Source of the DNA: Perna viridis
Taxonomy: Eukaryota
Direction: 5' to 3'
DNA: 64,000 bases
NCBI GenBank assembly: GCA_037379345.1
Contig: CM074516.1
Coordinates: 14,694,001-14,758,000, forward strand
How positions within the stretch are numbered: the stretch's first letter is position 1; each line of letters starts with the position of its first letter. This document shows positions 31,478-45,866 of this stretch, piece by piece. The notes beneath the pieces are model-generated. The model was not told where the DNA came from. It did no database searches and saw only the letters and a program-made list of their open reading frames with translations. The translations under genes and the position numbers were made by a program.

Positions 31478-34400
31478 AAAGTTGATAAGGGTTTAGCACA
31501 TCTTCAAAATACGAATACAAAAGACCATCTGAGGTCCCCTGAAATTCCTGAAGTCTCGGAACGTCATCTTTGTGAGCAGAATCTTGCATTCCAACCATAT
31601 GTTCCCCGTAGGCTTGTTGGATGTAAGACGGTACATCATGTGGATGAAGGATCGTTATAGTATGCACCAGTAGACATGTCACTTTCGTAATGAACAAGTG
31701 GTTCCTTGTTGTTCTGGCCATTTAACGTTTTTACAGCAAACCCAATAATAACGAGCACAATACACACCGTTCCCACTACTGATATTGCTATATACACTGT
31801 CCGTATTTCAAAATCTGAAATGATAGCTAAATATATTATTCAATTCGTTCAATGCATAAAGACATAAACTGTATCTCCATAACGAAGAACATTTCATCGA
31901 CACAGTTTCGACAACATATTTCATAATATGCAAGTGCAATTAATTAGTGTGCAATTTCGCAATTTTTTTGTTCTTCCACTATATCACTTACTAGTATTAT
32001 AACCCCGTCTTGACAACATATTTTGTGATATTAACTCAATTATTTATCACAATTTACCCGTATATTGAAAACATGTCACTAGCATAAAATACATAAATTT
32101 GATATTATTTTTCTCCAGTGGAAAGAATTTCGCGCAGGAAACTTTTGGATGTAACATATACATCATTCATGTACATGTATATGCAAGTGCAATTGATTAG
32201 TGTGCAATTTCGTGATTTAATTTTTCTTCCACTAAATCACTTGCTAATATTATGAATTGCATTTAAGTACACACAGACAGAAACCCAAATTTATTCAATC
32301 TTCTGCACAGAGGCCTTCCTCGTTATCCGAATAGACTTCTCGCTATGCGGGCTCGAAGTTTATTTGAATAACTCATAAGACAGTGCTGTAAATATAATAT
32401 GTATGAATGGTCATCTGGTGTATAGTATAATGACTTACGCAGTATAATTTGTTTGTATGTGTATGGGTTGCCTGGGTATAATATTTAGTTTTAACCCGGT
32501 GGTTTTTTTCTCTCTTTAACATATACGATGTACACCATACATGTACCTATTATCCTGATATAGTGTATTTAATGTGTTCCACGCCACACAGAACATTCAT
32601 TTATATACCCAAATATTTTAGCATATACAAAATCAATGGTGGATCCTTGGAGGGGTTCCAGGGGTAGGAATATCCCCTATCGTTGGACACAATTGTGTTA
32701 ATGTAAGCAGATAGTAAGGAATCCTAAATGTCGTTTTCGGAACCCACCTGTTTTTTGAAAAATAAATTTCATTATCCTCCGTCGGAATAAGGGATGAATT
32801 TCAGATAAATCTCGATAATAGCCATTTTGTTTTACTTGGTTATTAGAAGACGGCTTGTGAAAAGTTCTACCCACATACAGATGTATGCAGCACCAATTTT
32901 TGCGTTTCCACTACTGGTTTTCAATTGAATCACGTATACGGACCCATACAGCTTATGTGCAAAAAGGTGTGGCCATCTGATTGCTATATTGTGTACATGT
33001 ATTCCTTACTACTGATAATATTGTCACAAGACTACTTCAATAATCATTTCAAAAAGTTTACGTCTGACATAATTTTGTTGGTAAACTCAACAGTAACAAT
33101 ATTTTTTTGACAATGTAATAGTTCCCCTGCAGGTGCACCAGATCAATATTCAAAGTTTAATTTAAGTGAAATACGAATTACTTATTCCTTCCTTATCCTC
33201 TGGGTTTATTGTTTAATAGTATATTTTTTTTTTATTTTGTGCGATCGCAAGCCGTATCTGCATCAGCTAATGCTCATCGACAGATCGCATTTAAGATAAA
33301 AGGGTCTATTCGTACGAAAATCAACACACGTATTTCAGTTTCTAGTTAAGAATACAATACATACATTTAATTTGACATCAACAGACCGCAGAACGCTGTT
33401 GTTTACAAATGTACATCTGTATATGCCCGTATCAGTCATGGACACATTTTTAATCTCTAAAGCATAATTTCCGTACGTCGAATTACGTAGTATCCGAATT
33501 CTTTTATGGACAGGGAAACCGTCATTTATCCGGAAATCATCGATATAAGTGCTGTTTGTTACATTTCTTTTCGTGTCCAGAAAAAGCCATTGCATGACTG
33601 TATTACCCGGTGGGTTTTGGCATAGAAGTATGGCAGTGTTCCCAAGCGAAACATTCTGAACTATGAGACTATTTATCTCTGAAAATAAAATATAATAGAT
33701 CTTGAAAATTAAAGTAGCATGAAACGAGAAGTGTCTATTTTTATAAAATCAGCTTAGACACCAAAAAAAATTGCAATGCCGTTTTATTCGGAAACAGATT
33801 ATATTTTTAAAAGGGAAGGATGTAATCTGCACTTACAGCAGACCACTACAGTGATTTGTTTAGAGAAGAGAAAAAAAACCACGTTGATTTCTTGTAGATT
33901 TTTTAATTCAGAAACGAAAAGTAATTCGGACTTAAAGACAATAATTGTAAACCAAAATGGAACGCAAAACACACAACATGTCAAGATGAAGAGACAATTT
34001 CGTGGTATTATTATTGGTTTCAAAACGAAACTTTCTGAACAATTGAATGCCATTATTTCATGATCTGTTTGGTATTGTTACAAAATGTTGTAAAAATGTC
34101 TTCGCTTGGAAGAATTAAATCCCTGTTAAAGATATCATTATTGTGGCATGTTATGCAAAATTTCAGCTTCATTATGATCAAACATGGGTTTTGCAAGAAA
34201 AAAAATATAGACTTCTTATCAACATTATCATCTTCATAACTTTCAGTGCTTTCGTTCATTTTCTTCTGATATTTAATGTGTTCAATACCATTTACACAAT
34301 CGGAATTGTAAAGTTTCATCTCTATAAATAGCTGATCACGAACCACCGTAATCTTCTTTTTTATCTGTCTTCGTACTTTTTCAGTACAGGATAAAGTTGA

Positions 34401-35267
34401 TTTTTTTTCTTTTCTTTTCCATCTTGTCTGATTATTGTTCCCTGACCGAAAAATTCGTGCTTTTCAATTTGTAACAGTCTTTCATGCCTAACTGTTTATC
34501 TGTTATCGAAACAAATTTAGCGACGATTAGTCAATCGCCGTTTTTCTTTTTTCTGTCCAAAAGGATGTACATTCATGAAACTCATGTTTTTCATTGATTC
34601 TATGTTTATTGTTGATGACTTTGTCACGGTGCTTTCTGCGTCCTCTGCTTCAAGTTCTATTCTTTACACAATGATGTTATTATTCATAATGGAGCTTTAA
34701 ACAAAATTTAAAGAGGCGGTGTTTATTCATGATTAGCCCGGACTTTGAATGCGTATAACCTGGTATTAAATCATACCAAAATATCACTTAAAATATTGTG
34801 CATTACACCAAATAATTTTATAATTTCTGATGATAAGCATTTCAACCATTTTTAACAAAAACCCAGTAGTGTGTTTTATAAAAATGATTTTTTTTAATAT
34901 TTTACATGTATATACATGTACAACAATGACTCAGAAGTCAAAGTTGACTGGGTACCAATGAATAATTGACACAATTTGCATTATACATTTTTAATATTTT
35001 ATTAGTAATTTAATACTTAATTCAATATAGAAAATATAGTATTCGTTATAAACTCGTCTATTTACCTAGTATTGTTATACATGGACTATCATTTTTGTTC
35101 AATATGATACAGAAATTTGCTTGATTGAATAATGGATTAGGCTTTAACGTTAAGTAGACATTTTATTAATTACAGGACGAGATATTTGACAACTAAAATG
35201 AAAGTTTACCTAGAAATAGAAGAGTAAGAATCCATGTTAAAGGCGTCAATTTAGAGAGCATAAACAT
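31478..35267 (-). pseudogene. IgV receptor copy B: intact signal+Ig, disrupted membrane part (pseudogene or secreted 133-aa Ig)
   Basis: Signal exon 35267-35210 (MFMLSKLTPLTWILTLLFL). The Ig exon from 33678 is open, but a 7-nt deletion (gtaatag) at the donor shifts phase; read-through stops at 33335. A ~0.9-kb deletion near 32312 removes the stalk exon. The TM exon from 31814 has a 5-nt deletion giving TGA at 31638-31636. Homology ends near 31478. Confidence 0.8.
34300..34680 (-). mobile_element. Degenerate non-LTR retrotransposon ORF1 fragment in intron 1 (copy at ~38860-39180, +)
   Basis: Broken translation EDAESTV..I..KHEFH..YKLKGTNFSVREQ..YPVLK..VVRDQLFI, typical of LINE ORF1 C-terminal regions. 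Shared by B and C, absent from A. Confidence 0.55.
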
Positions 35268-38166: not shown

Positions 38167-41100
38167 ATGTTTATGCTCTCTAGATTGGCACTTTTAACAT
38201 GGATTATTACACTTCTATTTCTAGGTAAACTTTCATTTTAGTTGTCAAATATCTCGTCCTGTAATTAATAAAATGTCTACTTAACGTTAAAGCCCAATCT
38301 GTTATTCAATCAAACAAATTTCTGTATCATATTGAACAGAAATGATAGTCCATGTATAACAATACTAGGTAAATAGACGAGTNNNNNNNNNNNNNNNNNN
38401 NNNNNNNNNNNNNNNNNNNNNNNNNNNNNNNNNNNNNNNNNNNNNNNNNNNNNNNNNNNNNNNNNNNNNNNNNNNNNNNNNNNNNNNNNNNNNNNNNNNN
38501 NNNNNNNNNNNNNNNNNGGCTTAAAATAAGTTAAAAATGTATAATACCTATTTTGTCAATTACCCATTGGTACTCAGTCAACTTTGACTTCTTGGACACT
38601 GTTGTAAATGTCTATACATGTAAGATATTTTAGTAAAACACACTGTACTGTGTTTTTGTTGAAAATAGTTGAATTTTTTATCATCAGAAATTATAAAATG
38701 ATTTGGAGCACTGCACAATATTTGAAGTGACACTTTGGTATCATTGAATACATGTACCAGATTATAACGCATTCAAAGTTCGGGTTAATCATGAATAAAC
38801 ACCGGATCTTTAACCTTTGTTTAAGGCACCATTATGAATAATAACATTATTGTATCAGTAATAAAACTTGAAGCAGAGGAGGACGCAGAAAGCACCGTGG
38901 CAAACTTCATTAACAATGAACTTAGAATCAATGAAAAACATGAGTTTCATGAATAAACATCCTTTTGGAAAGAAAAAGAAAAACGGCAATTGACTAATCG
39001 TCTCTACATTTGTATCGATAAAAGATAAACAGTTAGGGATGAAAAACTGTTACAAATTGAAAGGTACAAATTTTTCGGTCAGGGAACAAGATGGAAAAGA
39101 AAAGAAAAAAAAATATCCTGTACTAAAAGGTGCGTTGAAAGACAAAAAGAAGATTACTGTGGTTCGTGATCAAATGAAAATGGTGTTGAACGCATTAAGT
39201 TTCAGAAAAAAAACACATGAACGAAAGCACTGAACGCTATGAAGATGACAATTTTGATGAGAAGTCAATATTTTTTCCTTCAAAACCCATGTTTTATCAT
39301 AATGAAGCTGAAATGTCGTATAACATGCTACAGGAATGATAACTTTAACAGTGATTTAATTCTTCCAAGCGCAGATTTGTTTTGATATTTCTACAACATT
39401 TTGTAACAATACCAAACTTATCATAACATAATGCCATCCAATAATATCGTCCACACTTTTTGACGGATGATTTGCCCCAAATGTTCAGAAAGTTTTGATT
39501 CGAAACCAATAATATTGCCACTAAATTGTCTCTTCATCTTCACATGTTGCGTGTTTTGCGTTTCATTTTGGTTTACAATTATTGCCTCCAAGTTCAGATT
39601 ACTTTTCGTTTCTGAGCTAAAACATCTACAGGAAATCAATGTGTTTTTTTTTTCTTCTCTACAAAAATCCATTGCAGTGGTCTGCAGTATGTACATATTG
39701 TATCCTTTCATTTTAAAATATAACCTGTTTCCGAATAAAACGGCATTGCAATTTTTTTGTGCCTAAGCTGATTTCATAAAAAATAAATTACTCATCTCGT
39801 TTCGTGCTACTTTAATTGTCTAGATCTATTATATTCTATTTTCAGAGATAAATAGCCTCATAGTTCAGAATGTTTCGCTTGGGAACACTACCATACTTCC
39901 ATGCCAAAACCCACCGGGTAATACAGTCATGCAATGGCTTCTTCTGGACACGAAAAGAAATGTAACAAATAGCACTTATACCGATGGTTTCCGGATAAAT
40001 AACGGTCTCCCTGTCCATAAAAGAATTCGGATTCTACGAATTTCGACGTATGGAAATTATGCTTTAGAGATTAAAAATGTGTCCATGACCGATACGGGCA
40101 TGTACAGATGTACATTTGTAAACAACAGCGTTCTGCGGTCTATTGATGTCAAATTGAATGTAATAGGTATGTATTGTAGTTTTAACTAGAAACTGAAACA
40201 CGGGTGTTGATCTTCGTACGAATAGACCCTTTTATCTTAAATGCGATATGTCGATGAGCATATGATGATGCAGATACGGCTTGGGATCGCACAAAATACA
40301 AAGAACGATATATTATTAAAAAATAAACTCAGAAACTAAGGAATGAATAAGTACATTGTATTTCACTAAAATAAAACTTTGAATATTGATCTGGCGCACA
40401 TGTGGGGTAAATGGGCGTTTTTCAATAAAAGTGTGATTTTCAGTTGGCAAAACATATCAAAAATAACGTTTAATTATGTGAACTTTTTTAATGTAACCAA
40501 ACTTTTCAACATCAATGCTAACAAATTCCAAGACATGCAATCTTAATGCAAACATTAACTGACTCAAAAAACAACAATATAATGGCACATAATAATAAAA
40601 TATCCACTACGAAACAAATTATTTAGCTGAGATTAATAATATTAAAAAGAATATACTTCTATTTTTCGTGTTGATTTGGCATTAACTATGACAAAAATGA
40701 TATGAAAAGTTTACTCAATATTTGGTATGTCACTTAATGAGCATTCACTTGGACATTTCATATCAAAAATACAATAACTTGATAAAATTATACCCTTTCA
40801 AATACAAATATTCTTTGATGATCTTTCAAAACCTGTTTTCTATACTTTAGAGAGTGTTGACTGGAGGGACTAAATTGATGTTTAATTCGGTTCATAAAAA
40901 TAAATTTGCATATGAGCACAAATTGTATTTTCATGTTGCGTTACGTATTGGACAAGATTGTTTCCTAATGGACTAAATCGTTACGTATTGGACATTCAGC
41001 ATAACTTGCTGTTTGAGTGGAAATTATAATAATACTATTACAAATTAACTGAATTCCTGGTATGTACCCTTACTCAGATAATATTTTCAAATTGCCTTAG

Positions 41101-41776: not shown

Positions 41777-44700
41777 CCTAGAGATATGAGAGTATGGTAG
41801 CTACATAAATAAAATACACAGAACATCTAGACATATTCAAAACAGTCAATCAATGAGTTTATATCTCTGTATTCGATTATTTCCCTTAACATTTTGTCCT
41901 TTTCTGGAGTTTACCCATCGTTTTCTTCCATGTTTTATCATCAATCTGATAATGTGTTGTCCCCTCAATCGTCCTTGGCTGACTTATTATTCCCAAGATG
42001 TCTTCAAACTCATATCAGGTTTTGTCAAGGATATTTTTTTTTGGCCACAAAAAGCAATTTGCACCCTTAGATCCAACTCTTTGCATACACTCAACATATA
42101 AAATCTGCGATTCTGAATCAATGTTTTCTACATAATATTATCCTGGATACGCGTGTCCTTGGTATTCTATTATAACATATGAACTAACATAGTTCTCTAC
42201 AGTATCTACAGAAAATAAGGACTTTGATGACTGCCCCCTTTTTTTATCTTCCTGGGTTTACCATGATTCATCGTTTGTCCTTTTAATCAGAATATATTCT
42301 GTCTCCTACCACTTGTGTCTTATAATTCAAATGTTAGGTGTCACAATTTGGAAAGAATTATTAAATGACTAACTTGTGCAGTATCTTGAGTGAATGCATC
42401 AAACGCCATATGTACGTAAGTTTCTTTGTTTTGAACATAAATATCTTTTGGTGGAAAAGAGGTATTTCGTAACATTTTTTTCTTTTTAAAATCTTTTTGG
42501 TTTAGAAAAATAAATAATGCGAATAACAAAATGATTTCTTCAATAAATGTCCATTACGAAACGATTTTGTCAACTACGAAACGAAAACTGTCGTTTCGTA
42601 GTTGACCGTTTCGTTGGGGACATATTTGCGGGAAAACGCGGAAAATTTAGCCACTAACACTACTTAAACAATTTTCTGATATGTTTTGATCTAAGCAACA
42701 ACATATCTTCTAAATCACAAATTTAGGAGAAATTTCAGCGTGTGCATGTACGTTAAAATCTCCGTTACCAAGTGGACAAGTAAAAAAATACGGGGTGCTC
42801 TCTACTTACCAAAATGCAAGTATTTTCTTTACTTGTTCATTTCGACTTCCAGTATGCAGCCATGTTGTTACTAGGATATAGTATTAGTAGTAAGACACTT
42901 CCTAGTAACAAGGAATCCAGTTATGTGTTTATATTAGCAACAAAAGTAAAATAGTTTCGTAGTGGACTAAATTTCGGGGACAACTACAAAATGTAATTTT
43001 ACATCGATTATGGAAATAAATCGATCAAATCGTTTTTGGATATTAATTTTGAGTATCTTGTTATGATCAGAAATAATGTATCATTTACTTTTGAATCCAA
43101 AAATCGATCAATTTCGAAGTGTATTTTATCTGTTCATGTTTTGGGGACATGTCAATTCCAACCATTCGAACTTGTTTCTTTCATTGATAACATTGAGGAG
43201 TTTTTTTTCTCCCTACTGTGTTTTGTATATTGACTCACAATATACTCAACAGACTAAAAATTACTCGCATATTTAGACAGAAATTCACAAAATCTTTTAG
43301 GACAAGAATTCTCGCTTTTGTTGAAAAAAGCCCATATATGCGTCCTTTTAGAAATATCTGTCGTAACTGGTGTCACGATATAACAATCAGATGGCCATAT
43401 CTTTTTGTACATAAACTGTACATGGGTCCGTATACGTGATTTAATGGAAAACCAGTAGTGCAAACGCAAAAGGTGGTGCTGCATACATCCGTATGTGGGT
43501 AGAACTTTTCACAAGCCGTCTTTTAATAACCAAATAAAACAAAATGGCTATTATCGAGACCTATCTGAAATACATCCCTTATTTCGACGGAGGACAATAA
43601 AATTTATTTAAAAAAGACAGGTGGGTTCCGAAAACGACATTTAGGATTCCTTAGTATCTGCTTACATTAACACAATTGTGTCCAACAATAGGGAATATCC
43701 TTACCCCTGGAACCCCTCCAAGGATCCACCATTGATTTTGTATATGCTAAAATATTTGGTTATAGTAATGAACGTTCTGTGTGACGTTGAATACACTGTA
43801 TAAGGAGAATAGGTACATGTATGGTGTACATTGTATATGTTAAAGAGACAAAAACACCACCGGGATAAAACAAAATATCATGCCATGGCCACCCATATGC
43901 ATACAAACAAAGTATACTGCGTAAGTCATTATACTATATTACTCCAGATGACTATTCGTACATATTATATTTATAGCACTGTCTTATGAGTTAATCAAAT
44001 AGACTTCGAACCCGCATAGCGAGAAGTCTATTCGGATAACGAGGAAGGCAGTGTTATAAATGATTTGTTACATGAATTGACCACACCCATTAATCGATAA
44101 TTGACGAATGAGAGATATACAGGCACGGGTAGCTCGTGCTCTCGTTCTTTGTTGAATCATTTTCGTCAGAGGCGGAGTTGTCCATATGCAATATTTATGC
44201 TAATGACGTTGGATATTGCACAGCTGTTTTCAAATTGAGTTCTATGGGAACACGCGACCTTTCATGCAATATCATACAAGATTTATAGTTAGAGCACACT
44301 TTGTCTTCCTCTTATATTTATTTGTGAAAAAGAACAAAAGAAAAATCTCAATTCATGAAACAAGTACTTACTGCATGTTAATATTAAACTTCGGGTTTGT
44401 TCTATTGATAGATGTTCTCGATTTGCCAGAAAATGAAGTGGATATGGAACAAAATACTACGACTTTTATCGATCTTCAAAAGGAACAAAGGCAAATAGAG
44501 ATCAAAGGTTTATTTATTGTGCTTGAACATTAGTTTTGTACATATAGACAAGGTCAATATGACTTAGTACGTACATTGATGAATTGTATGTCACGTGGTT
44601 TTCTATTTAACCAACAATCGTTTTATTTTGCGAGTGGCCAAATAAAAAGACTTTCATCAAATCGATGTTCCTGACACTTATGTATGTATATCTCTATTGA

Positions 44701-45866
44701 AGAGGGTGCGACAGGGGCACCAATATTGGTTTCTGAAGGTTGTCTTGCTAATAGATTACTATCTCTTCCACAGACCTATAACCGCTTTCTGATTCATGGC
44801 ATATCACTCCGCTAGCCTATAGGCTATTCTATACAAGATGTGAAAAAAATTAGAAGGCATGAGCACTACTCATAACAAATCTGCTAAGCTACATGTAGTT
44901 CCGTTTTACTGTACTTATTTGCAAGAGGCGGGGTTCAATACTGAATGTGGTTTGAAATAGCGAATCAATCCTCTGTGCAGGAGATTGAATAAATTTGGGT
45001 TTCTGTCTGTGTGTACTTAAACGCAATTCATAATATTAGCAAGTGATTTGGTGGAAGAGCAAAGAACTAAAAATTCGTGAATTTGCACACTATTCAATTG
45101 CACTTGCATATACATGTACATGTATGATGTATGTGTAACATCCAAAAGTGTCCTGCGTGCAATTCTTTCCACTGGAGAAAAAAAAATCAAATTTATATAT
45201 TTTATGCTAGTTAAATGTTTTCAATATACGGGTAAGTTGTGAAAAATAATTGAGTTAATATCAAAAAATGTGTTGTCGAGACGGGGTCGATGAAATGTTT
45301 TCATTCTTTTTCTTCGTTATGGAGATACATTTACAGTATATGTATTTATTCATCGTACGACTTGAATAATATATTTAGCTTTCATTTCAGATTTTGAAAT
45401 ACGGGCAGTGTATATAGCAATATCAGTAATGGGAACGGTGTGCATTGTGCTCGCTGTTATTGGTGTTGCTGTAAAAACGCCTAAGAGCCAAAGAAAACAG
45501 GAACCCCTTGTTCATGACGAAAGTTACATGTCTACTGAAGCATACTATAACGATCCTTCATCCAGAACACGTGATGTACCGTCTTACATACAACAAGCGT
45601 ATGGGGAACAAGATTCTGCTCAGAAATATGACGTTTCGAGACTTCCGGAATTGCAGGGAACCACAGGTAGTCTTTTGTATTCGTATATTGAAGATGTGCC
45701 AAGCCCTTATCAACTTTTGACACGTGATCAGCAGGAATCACATGTATACAAGACTTGCGCAGTGAATAATGCTAAAGGCGGAATGATTTCAAAAAGTGAT
45801 GAAAAGTCACATGACTATGCAGAGTGTGGTCCTACCTCAGAATTGTATATGACCATGTCTGGGTGA
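38167..45866 (+). CDS. IgV type-I membrane receptor, copy C, full length (316 aa) with tyrosine-motif tail
   Basis: Exons 38167-38224 (signal), 39846-40166 (V-set Ig, DTGMYRC), 44412-44507 (stalk) and 45391-45866 (TM + tail ..EAYYND..LLYSYIEDVPSPYQLL..HVYKTC..HDYAEC..ELYMTMSG*). 951 nt in frame, canonical phase-1 introns. Confidence 0.9.
40411..43335. mobile_element. ~2.9-kb non-autonomous DNA transposon in intron 2 of copy C
   Basis: TIRs atgggcgtttttcaataaaagtg / cgcttttgttgaaaaaagcccat; absent from copies A and B. Internal minus-strand decayed coding piece at ~42095-41890 (VECMQRVGSKGANCFLWPKK..*YEFEDILGIISQP). Confidence 0.75.
41709..41773. repeat. (TA)n microsatellite
   Basis: About 32 perfect TA units. 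Confidence 0.95.

What the first reader, a model, noticed from the sequence alone, without database searches (positions are those of the whole stretch)
45474..45866. Tail with an ITAM-spaced pair whose halves also fit ITIM, plus Grb2- and PI3K-type motifs
Seen: YSYI-EDVPSP-YQLL fits YxxI/L-x6-YxxL (ITAM). LLYSYI and SPYQLL also fit the ITIM-type pattern (I/V/L/S)xYxx(L/V/I). YYND fits YxN (Grb2 SH2) and terminal YMTM fits YxxM (PI3K p85; cf. CD28 YMNM). The TM has no charged residue. Inference: an adaptor-independent, CD28-like single-V receptor that could switch between Syk and SHP outputs.
Basis: partly seen in the sequence, partly recalled or inferred. Interest (0 to 1): 0.7.

Follow-up and report, generated by a model that had tools for sequence, protein, structure and literature searches.

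The report
Single-Ig receptor with tyrosine-motif tail
This is a spliced, expressed animal gene for a cell-surface protein with one immunoglobulin domain and a tyrosine-rich tail that likely signals by docking phosphotyrosine-binding proteins; the motifs are real, but the ITAM spacing is not kept in its one intact distant relative, and tails like this are common in the same genome.

Summary
The motifs are present as described. They sit in the last exon of a real four-exon gene (signal peptide, V-set Ig, stalk, uncharged TM plus 130-aa tail; 316 aa), spliced in transcript contigs. The interpretation only partly survives. In the one intact distant paralog (contig C8, V domain 35% identical) both tyrosines of the 'ITAM' are kept, but the spacer is 20 residues, not 6, and YxN and YxxM are absent. 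What is kept is an ITIM-type first tyrosine plus a long-spacer module on the second and third tyrosines (YQLL-x9-YKTC; YEPL-x10-YKDI), which also occurs twice in an unnamed protein from elsewhere. CD28 hallmarks are missing. Short-spacer ITAM patterns occur in 9 of 11 other receptor tails tested from this genome. The genome has Syk-, SHP2-, SHIP-, Grb2- and p85-like SH2 exons, so adaptor-independent tyrosine signalling is plausible but untested. Three broken tandem copies lie in the window; one stops before every tail tyrosine and may be transcribed. Verdict: a new member of a known kind (invertebrate IgSF receptors with ITAM/ITIM tails); Syk/SHP switching unproven.

The parts
38167..38224 (+). 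Exon 1: ATG and hydrophobic signal peptide (19 aa), phase-1 GT donor
   Evidence: Sequence and hydropathy; exon1-to-V joint GT..AG in 1 of 4 contig runs, X7, laid on the paralogous copy A
39846..40166 (+). Exon 2: V-set Ig domain (Cys39, Cys108; 6 N-glycan sequons)
   Evidence: Pfam V-set E 1.1e-11; model pLDDT 64 matches V/I-type Ig folds; sequons
44412..44507 (+). Exon 3: 32-codon acidic stalk, no cysteine
   Evidence: Contig piece and joint in X7 plus one X21 read; V-to-stalk joint in 4 of 4 contig runs from 4 studies
45391..45866 (+). Exon 4: TM and the whole cytoplasmic tail, stop TGA
   Evidence: Open frame; 19 listed runs from 9 studies hold at least half its words; acceptor confirmed by joint
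45405..45473 (+). Transmembrane helix (aa 164-186), no charged residue
   Evidence: Hydropathy
45543..45554 (+). YYND (Tyr210), Grb2-type YxN; kept in broken copy B, destroyed in copy A, absent in C8 paralog
45672..45689 (+).
45678..45719 (+).
45708..45758 (+). Conserved long-spacer module YQLL-x9-YKTC (Tyr265/Tyr278)
   Evidence: Matches C8 tail (13 of 5000 shuffles reach the score) and two repeats in P0002
45816..45857 (+). YAEC-x6-YMTM (Tyr301/Tyr311); YMTM is the p85-type YxxM; absent in C8 paralog
21446..25576 (+). Tandem copy A: all four exons and splice sites intact, but TAA at 25238-25240 (aligned to Tyr210) leaves a 23-aa tail with no tyrosine; candidate decoy or young pseudogene
   Evidence: copy-A-type contigs in 1 of 4 runs, X11
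31479..35267 (-). Tandem copy B, broken: altered V donor, no stalk exon found, frameshift and early stop in tail
5510..6631 (+). Decayed copy 0: V and tail remnants with many stops

Best explanation
The gene encodes an expressed type I membrane protein with one V-set Ig domain, a short stalk, an uncharged TM and a 12-tyrosine tail, and it likely works as a self-contained phosphotyrosine-signalling receptor of an invertebrate (probably bivalve) immune or cell-recognition system. Shown: gene structure, splicing, motifs, paralogs, SH2 partners in the genome. Inferred: ligand binding to the V domain clusters the receptor, a Src-family kinase phosphorylates the tail, and SH2 proteins dock on separate sites. 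The inherited core would be an ITIM-type site (Tyr255; SHP2 or SHIP) followed by a long-spacer ITAM-like pair (Tyr265/Tyr278; Syk-family tandem SH2). The 6-residue Tyr255/Tyr265 spacing, YxN and YxxM are likely features of this locus only, which may add or substitute docking options but are not family-defining.
For: Four-exon spliced transcript. C8 paralog: best V-domain relative outside this locus in both directions, same V/stalk/TM-tail exon plan, and in an otherwise 24%-identical TM-tail exon the invariant residues cluster on YSxIE and YxxLT..Q.SHVYK (shuffle 13 of 5000). A profile of the two tails against 1.84 billion representatives hit only the gene's own tail and P0002 (E 1.8e-5), which has two YxxL-x10-YKxV units. 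A related YxxL-x9-YxNL end is seen in many C13/C14 receptor tails. Best PDB hits of SH2 exons in the genome: Syk, SHP2, p85, SHIP, Grb2. Oyster CgIgR recruits Syk through an ITAM defined with a 6-12 spacer (PMC6994640, passages); oyster CgNCAM1 with ITIMs binds SHIP2 (PMC11841013, passages).
Against: Tyr278 has Cys at +3, not Leu/Ile, so the long-spacer pair fails the strict ITAM pattern in this copy, and neither pair has an acidic residue at -3. Copy A versus this copy gives pN/pS 0.98 overall, so no purifying selection is shown; the motif region is similar at silent sites and in the 3' flank too, which points to gene conversion. Conservation rests on one intact paralog and one unnamed fragment of unknown origin, whose units may be convergent. 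Tails of the C13/C14 family align only weakly (most shuffle p > 0.02). No ortholog from another species was found. No phosphorylation, binding, ligand or tissue data. The animal group is inferred, not determined.
Confidence: 0.55

Rival explanations
1. One reading: Tyr255/Tyr265 is a working short ITAM whose halves double as ITIMs, so the receptor flips between Syk and SHP output, with Grb2 and PI3K arms as in CD28.
For: Pattern overlap in 0.13% of shuffles. YxxI-x6/7-YxxL pairs are present in 9 of 11 C13/C14 tails tested, so this spacing is used in the genome. One ITAM giving either output is known in mammals (PMC5557797, abstract), and Botryllus FcoR3/4 swap ITIM and hemITAM by alleles and splicing (PMC12582321, passages).
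Against: Spacer is 20 in the C8 paralog; YxN and YxxM are absent there. No acidic residue at -3. Copy B has Phe at +3 of the first tyrosine (a broken copy). 0 of 11 C13/C14 tails have both halves fitting ITIM. CD28 hallmarks not met.
Confidence: 0.2
2. A purely inhibitory receptor: SHP2 or SHIP dock on Tyr255 and on a second site, and no Syk activation occurs.
For: The ITIM-type first site is the one motif that fits a strict consensus in both intact paralogs. Uncharged TM. SHP2 binds widely spaced sites, 31 residues apart in GAB1 (PMC12132298, passages), so a variable spacer would be tolerated.
Against: The C8 second tyrosine does not fit the ITIM pattern, and P0002 keeps the long-spacer module without any ITIM.
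Confidence: 0.13
3. An adhesion or uptake receptor whose Yxx-hydrophobic motifs are sorting and endocytosis signals, or largely neutral sequence; no SH2 signalling.
For: Any Yxx-hydrophobic motif appears in 89% of shuffles; pN/pS near 1 between copies; nearest folds are adhesion-type Ig domains such as IgLON, nectin, CAR/JAML and Dpr (low-confidence model). That such motifs bind the AP-2 adaptor is recalled, not tested.
Against: Paired, flanking-residue conservation (T..Q.SHVYK) is more than a sorting signal needs; 12 tyrosines in 130 residues; similar arrays recur across a large receptor family.
Confidence: 0.12

Closest known systems
Oyster CgIgR (ITAM, Syk-ERK) and CgNCAM1 (ITIMs, SHIP2); PMC6994640 and PMC11841013, passages read
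   Same: Invertebrate IgSF type I receptors carrying tyrosine motifs in their own tail, with Syk or SH2-phosphatase partners.
   Different: Those have five Ig or three Ig plus FN3 domains; this has one V domain and a stalk, and carries ITIM-type and ITAM-like sites together. Sequence homology was not tested.
Teleost NILT receptors (PMC3022915, passages read)
   Same: Leader, single V, connecting-peptide and TM exons in phase 1; tandem cluster with pseudogenes; ITAM or ITIMs in the tail.
   Different: NILT tails are split over further exons and their V domains have an extra cysteine pair; here TM and tail are one exon and the V has two cysteines. Analogy, not homology.
Hydractinia Alr family (bioRxiv 10.1101/2022.03.04.482883) and Botryllus FcoR (PMC12582321); passages read
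   Same: Clustered invertebrate IgSF genes with ITAM, hemITAM or ITIM tails that diverge fast; mixed or switchable motifs are already reported.
   Different: Those are multi-domain and tied to allorecognition loci. Here V and tail look nearly invariant among the runs seen, and no link to self-recognition is shown.
CD28/CTLA-4 (features from PMC8631826, passages read)
   Same: Single V domain, uncharged TM, YxxM and YxN patterns in the tail.
   Different: No MYPPPY-type loop, no stalk cysteine, YxN and YxxM on separate tyrosines, YxxM 125 residues from the membrane; CD28 and CTLA-4 are not among the listed PDB sequence or fold hits.

Membership tests
IgSF V-set type I receptor | V-set domain with B/F cysteines and C-strand Trp | tested here: met
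   Pfam V-set 45.3 bits over cut-off 26; C19, W30, C88 invariant in alignment A1
IgSF V-set type I receptor | Signal peptide, one TM, spliced transcript | tested here: met
Canonical ITAM receptor | YxxI/L-x6-8-YxxI/L | tested here: met
   45678-45719
Canonical ITAM receptor | Acidic residue at -3 of the first tyrosine (D/ExxYxxL/I, as written in PMC6994640) | tested here: not met
   Serine at -3; also absent in 11 of 11 C13/C14 tails
Canonical ITAM receptor | Spacing conserved in homologs | tested here: not met
   20 residues in the C8 paralog; 6 in the close tandem copies, which are not independent
Canonical ITAM receptor | Phospho-dependent binding of Syk tandem SH2 | not testable with these tools
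   A Syk-like SH2 exon exists in the genome; binding untested
ITIM receptor | (I/V/L/S)xYxx(L/V/I) | tested here: met
   Two sites here; the first also in C8, the second not
ITIM receptor | Recruitment of SHP1/2 or SHIP and inhibition | not testable with these tools
   SHP2- and SHIP-like SH2 exons exist
CD28/CTLA-4 family | Single V domain | tested here: met
CD28/CTLA-4 family | MYPPPY-type PPP loop | tested here: not met
   No PPP in the protein; feature from PMC8631826
CD28/CTLA-4 family | Disulfide-linked homodimer (stalk cysteine; the position is recalled) | tested here: not met
   Cysteines only at 39, 108, 176 (TM), 281, 304
CD28/CTLA-4 family | YMNM-type motif joining YxN and YxxM on one tyrosine | tested here: not met
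   Tyr210 and Tyr311 are separate; both lost in C8
Polymorphic allorecognition receptor (Alr/FcoR type) | High allelic diversity of the ectodomain | tested here: inconclusive
   V-exon contigs of 3 runs differ from copy A at 28-30 places, against 29 for the genome copy, so about one difference each; few samples, and contigs drop rare variants

The most novel reading that the evidence does not exclude
The tail exposes an uncatalogued long-spacer ITAM-like module (YxxL-x9/10-YKx[I/V/C], with Q.SH[V/I] before the second tyrosine) that is reused across invertebrate receptor families and coupled to an upstream ITIM, and this locus is a paired system in which tandem copy A, stopped before all tyrosines, is an expressed decoy for the signalling copy.
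Probability: 0.2. Interest if true: 0.6.

Novelty: new member of a known kind. Interest (0 to 1): 0.32.

Why it matters
If the tail signals as inferred, it adds a compact single-V receptor to the short list of invertebrate Ig receptors with built-in activating and inhibitory tyrosine sites, and a simple chimera could test which tyrosine pair an invertebrate Syk prefers. It also shows that pattern-matching a mammalian ITAM can pick the wrong pair. It does not push CD28-type co-stimulation back to invertebrates, and ITAM/ITIM tails and motif switching are already reported in oyster, Hydractinia and Botryllus.

Tried and rejected
My first three-exon model missed the stalk exon; transcript contigs corrected it. 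Three word-indexed protein searches (tail, V, V alignment; only the 'longer' length class) found nothing: weak evidence of absence. ESM Atlas on the TM-tail gave only scores under 0.9 (transmembrane adaptors such as SCIMP, LIME1, GAPT): leads only; the V domain could not be run there. No run is on record as RNA among the holders; expression rests on splice joints instead. Raw reads of three 2026 RNA runs gave very low cover of exon 4 (about 1x or less in 19-24% of each run); tissue unknown, so no level is claimed. Motif identity between copy A and the intact copy was rejected as evidence of selection: silent sites (pS 0.049) and the 3' flank (32 mismatches in 1035 columns) are as similar as the motifs, against 8-10% mismatches in introns. 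The excess of amino-acid change in the proximal tail (21 non-silent, 2 silent) was not tested for significance against neutrality. L049 could not be named; L051 served for Grb2. P0002 found no match in this genome, although it aligns to both tails pairwise, which shows the genome search misses short modules. No V-domain dimer prediction was obtained, so homophilic binding is open. No signal exon was fixed for the C8 gene (5 candidates). Nine literature searches listed no paper on this gene family; the species is unknown to me, subscription journals are missing, and no supplements were read, so an existing annotation cannot be excluded.

Full report
Observation. The stretch 45474-45866 translates to a 130-residue cytoplasmic tail with 12 tyrosines. 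The preceding helix (45405-45473) is uncharged. In 100,000 shuffles an ITAM pattern arose in 1.8%, an ITIM pattern in 33%, YxN in 25%, YxxM in 32%, and an ITAM with both halves fitting ITIM in 0.13%. The patterns were chosen after the fact, so the small figures flatter the case. The first tyrosine lacks the acidic residue at -3 that the ITAM consensus in PMC6994640 includes (passages).

The gene. It has four exons, all joined in phase 1 by GT-AG introns: signal peptide 38167-38224, V-set Ig 39846-40166 (Pfam E 1.1e-11), stalk 44412-44507, TM plus tail 45391-45866; 316 aa. A 1301-nt contig of run X7 covers stalk and last exon with a GT..AG joint and runs back into the V exon. Laid on the paralogous copy A, 4 of 4 contig runs from 4 studies show the V-to-stalk joint and 1 of 4 the signal-to-V joint. 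These contigs carry the intact copy's letters. So the gene is spliced and expressed, and it is single-V. Raw reads of three other RNA runs barely covered it. The genome is 723 Mb in 46 contigs, about 33% GC here; I take it for an invertebrate, probably a bivalve, from recalled features only.

Tandem copies. The window holds three more copies. Copy A (21446-25576) keeps all exons and splice sites but has TAA at the codon aligned to Tyr210, leaving a 23-residue tail without tyrosine. Run X11 has copy-A-type contigs over the last exon (2 differences in 296 nt; 0 in 171 nt), but also a low-depth intronic piece, and the output did not show whether the stop is among the differences (129 difference rows and 111 pieces were not displayed). 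Copy B and copy 0 are broken. Copy A against the intact copy gives pN/pS 0.98; the motif region and 3' flank are both unusually alike, which suggests gene conversion, so these copies say nothing about selection on the motifs.

The conservation test. The own-genome search found one clear relative outside the locus, on contig C8: V 35% identical, best match in both directions, with V, stalk and TM-tail exons in the same plan (predicted from sequence, no RNA laid). Its TM-tail exon is 24% identical, and the identities cluster on YSxIE and YxxLT..Q.SHVYK (13 of 5000 shuffles reach the score). The pair that keeps its spacing is the second and third tyrosine: YQLL-x9-YKTC here, YEPL-x10-YKDI in C8. 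A profile of the two tails against 1.84 billion representatives returned 2 proteins: this gene's own tail and P0002 (E 1.8e-5), an unnamed 138-aa singleton with two YxxL-x10-YKxV units. Its organism is unknown and convergence is possible. A broken second C8 tail keeps the same spacing.

Background in the genome. A tail from a multi-Ig locus on C13 retrieved 26 matches on C13, C14 and C11. Many end in YxxI/V-x6/7-YQxL-x12-YxxL-x9-YxNL (20 loci printed). Of 11 tails I selected as full length, 9 have a 6-8 spacer ITAM pattern, 4 have an ITIM pattern on its second half, none on both halves, 11 have YxN and 1 has YxxM; several are near-identical paralogs. Only the two loci at C13 10.93-10.95 Mb were checked for Ig exons.

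Partners. A Pfam SH2 search gave 43 matches. Five exons had best PDB hits to Syk, SHP2, p85, SHIP and Grb2; a sixth was unclear. Presence in the genome is not co-expression or binding.

Mechanism. Shown: structure, splicing, motifs, paralogs, partner exons. Inferred: ligand-driven clustering, Src-family phosphorylation, then SHP2 or SHIP at Tyr255 and a Syk-family kinase at Tyr265/Tyr278, with YxN and YxxM as optional local additions (0.55). A purely inhibitory receptor (0.13) and a sorting or adhesion role (0.12) remain.

Comparison. CD28 membership fails on the PPP loop, the stalk cysteine and the joint YMNM-type motif; CD28 and CTLA-4 are not among the listed hits of the PDB sequence search or the fold search, the latter on a weak model. 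It works, if anything, like oyster CgIgR and CgNCAM1, Hydractinia Alr, Botryllus FcoR and fish NILT (passages read). Switching between activating and inhibitory output is already known: Lyn/Fyn control of immunoreceptors (abstract), Draper isoforms (passages), FcoR3/4. I also read passages of a review of invertebrate IgSF (PMC11999971) and of a tandem-SH2 modelling preprint (PMC12132298). One earlier scan note reports a similar single-Ig family in another genome (unchecked).

Verdict. Real, expressed, unannotated in the collections searched, and a new member of a known kind. Interest 0.32.

Noticed in passing
window 21446-25576 (+): Copy A has intact exons but a stop before all tail tyrosines; four proximal tyrosines of the intact copy are replaced. 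The stop is in the last exon, so the transcript would likely escape decay. Copy-A-type contigs occur in 1 of 4 runs.
   Followed up: partly
L013 9403-7145 (-), G000 contig C8: Distant single-V paralog with a Ser/Thr-rich stalk and a tail holding an ITIM-type site and YEPL-x10-YKDI; a broken second tail lies about 7.7 kb upstream (L029).
   Followed up: partly
L061-L085, G000 contigs C13 and C14: Large family of receptor tails with arrays of three to four spaced tyrosine motifs (6/7, 12 and 9 residue spacers); at least two sit behind multi-Ig exons. A better target than this gene for studying ITAM arrays.
   Followed up: partly
P0002 (unnamed, ENA source): 138-aa protein with two copies of the YxxL-x10-YKxV module and a terminal acidic YETL site.
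   Followed up: partly
L015, L016, L017 (within 30 kb 5' of the window): TNF-family exon (Pfam TNF) with a degenerate second copy, a single-exon Toll-like receptor (LRR plus TIR, 781-aa frame) and a broken TLR copy: an immune-gene neighbourhood.
   Followed up: partly
L018 (within 10 kb 3' of the window): Single-exon rhodopsin-family GPCR and a fibrinogen C-terminal domain exon.
   Followed up: no
window 53643-57165 (-): Reverse transcriptase and GIY-YIG frames, split by frameshifts, with a 614-bp direct repeat: a Penelope-type retroelement by recalled definition.
   Followed up: no
window 16182-16701, 58329-58848, 63023-63529: Three copies of a 500-bp interspersed repeat about 95% identical, also seen on contig C13.
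   Followed up: no
L049 and L051, G000 contig C4: Two Grb2-like SH2 exons 15 kb apart on opposite strands, each with an insertion of several residues; L051 has Grb2 as best PDB hit.
   Followed up: no
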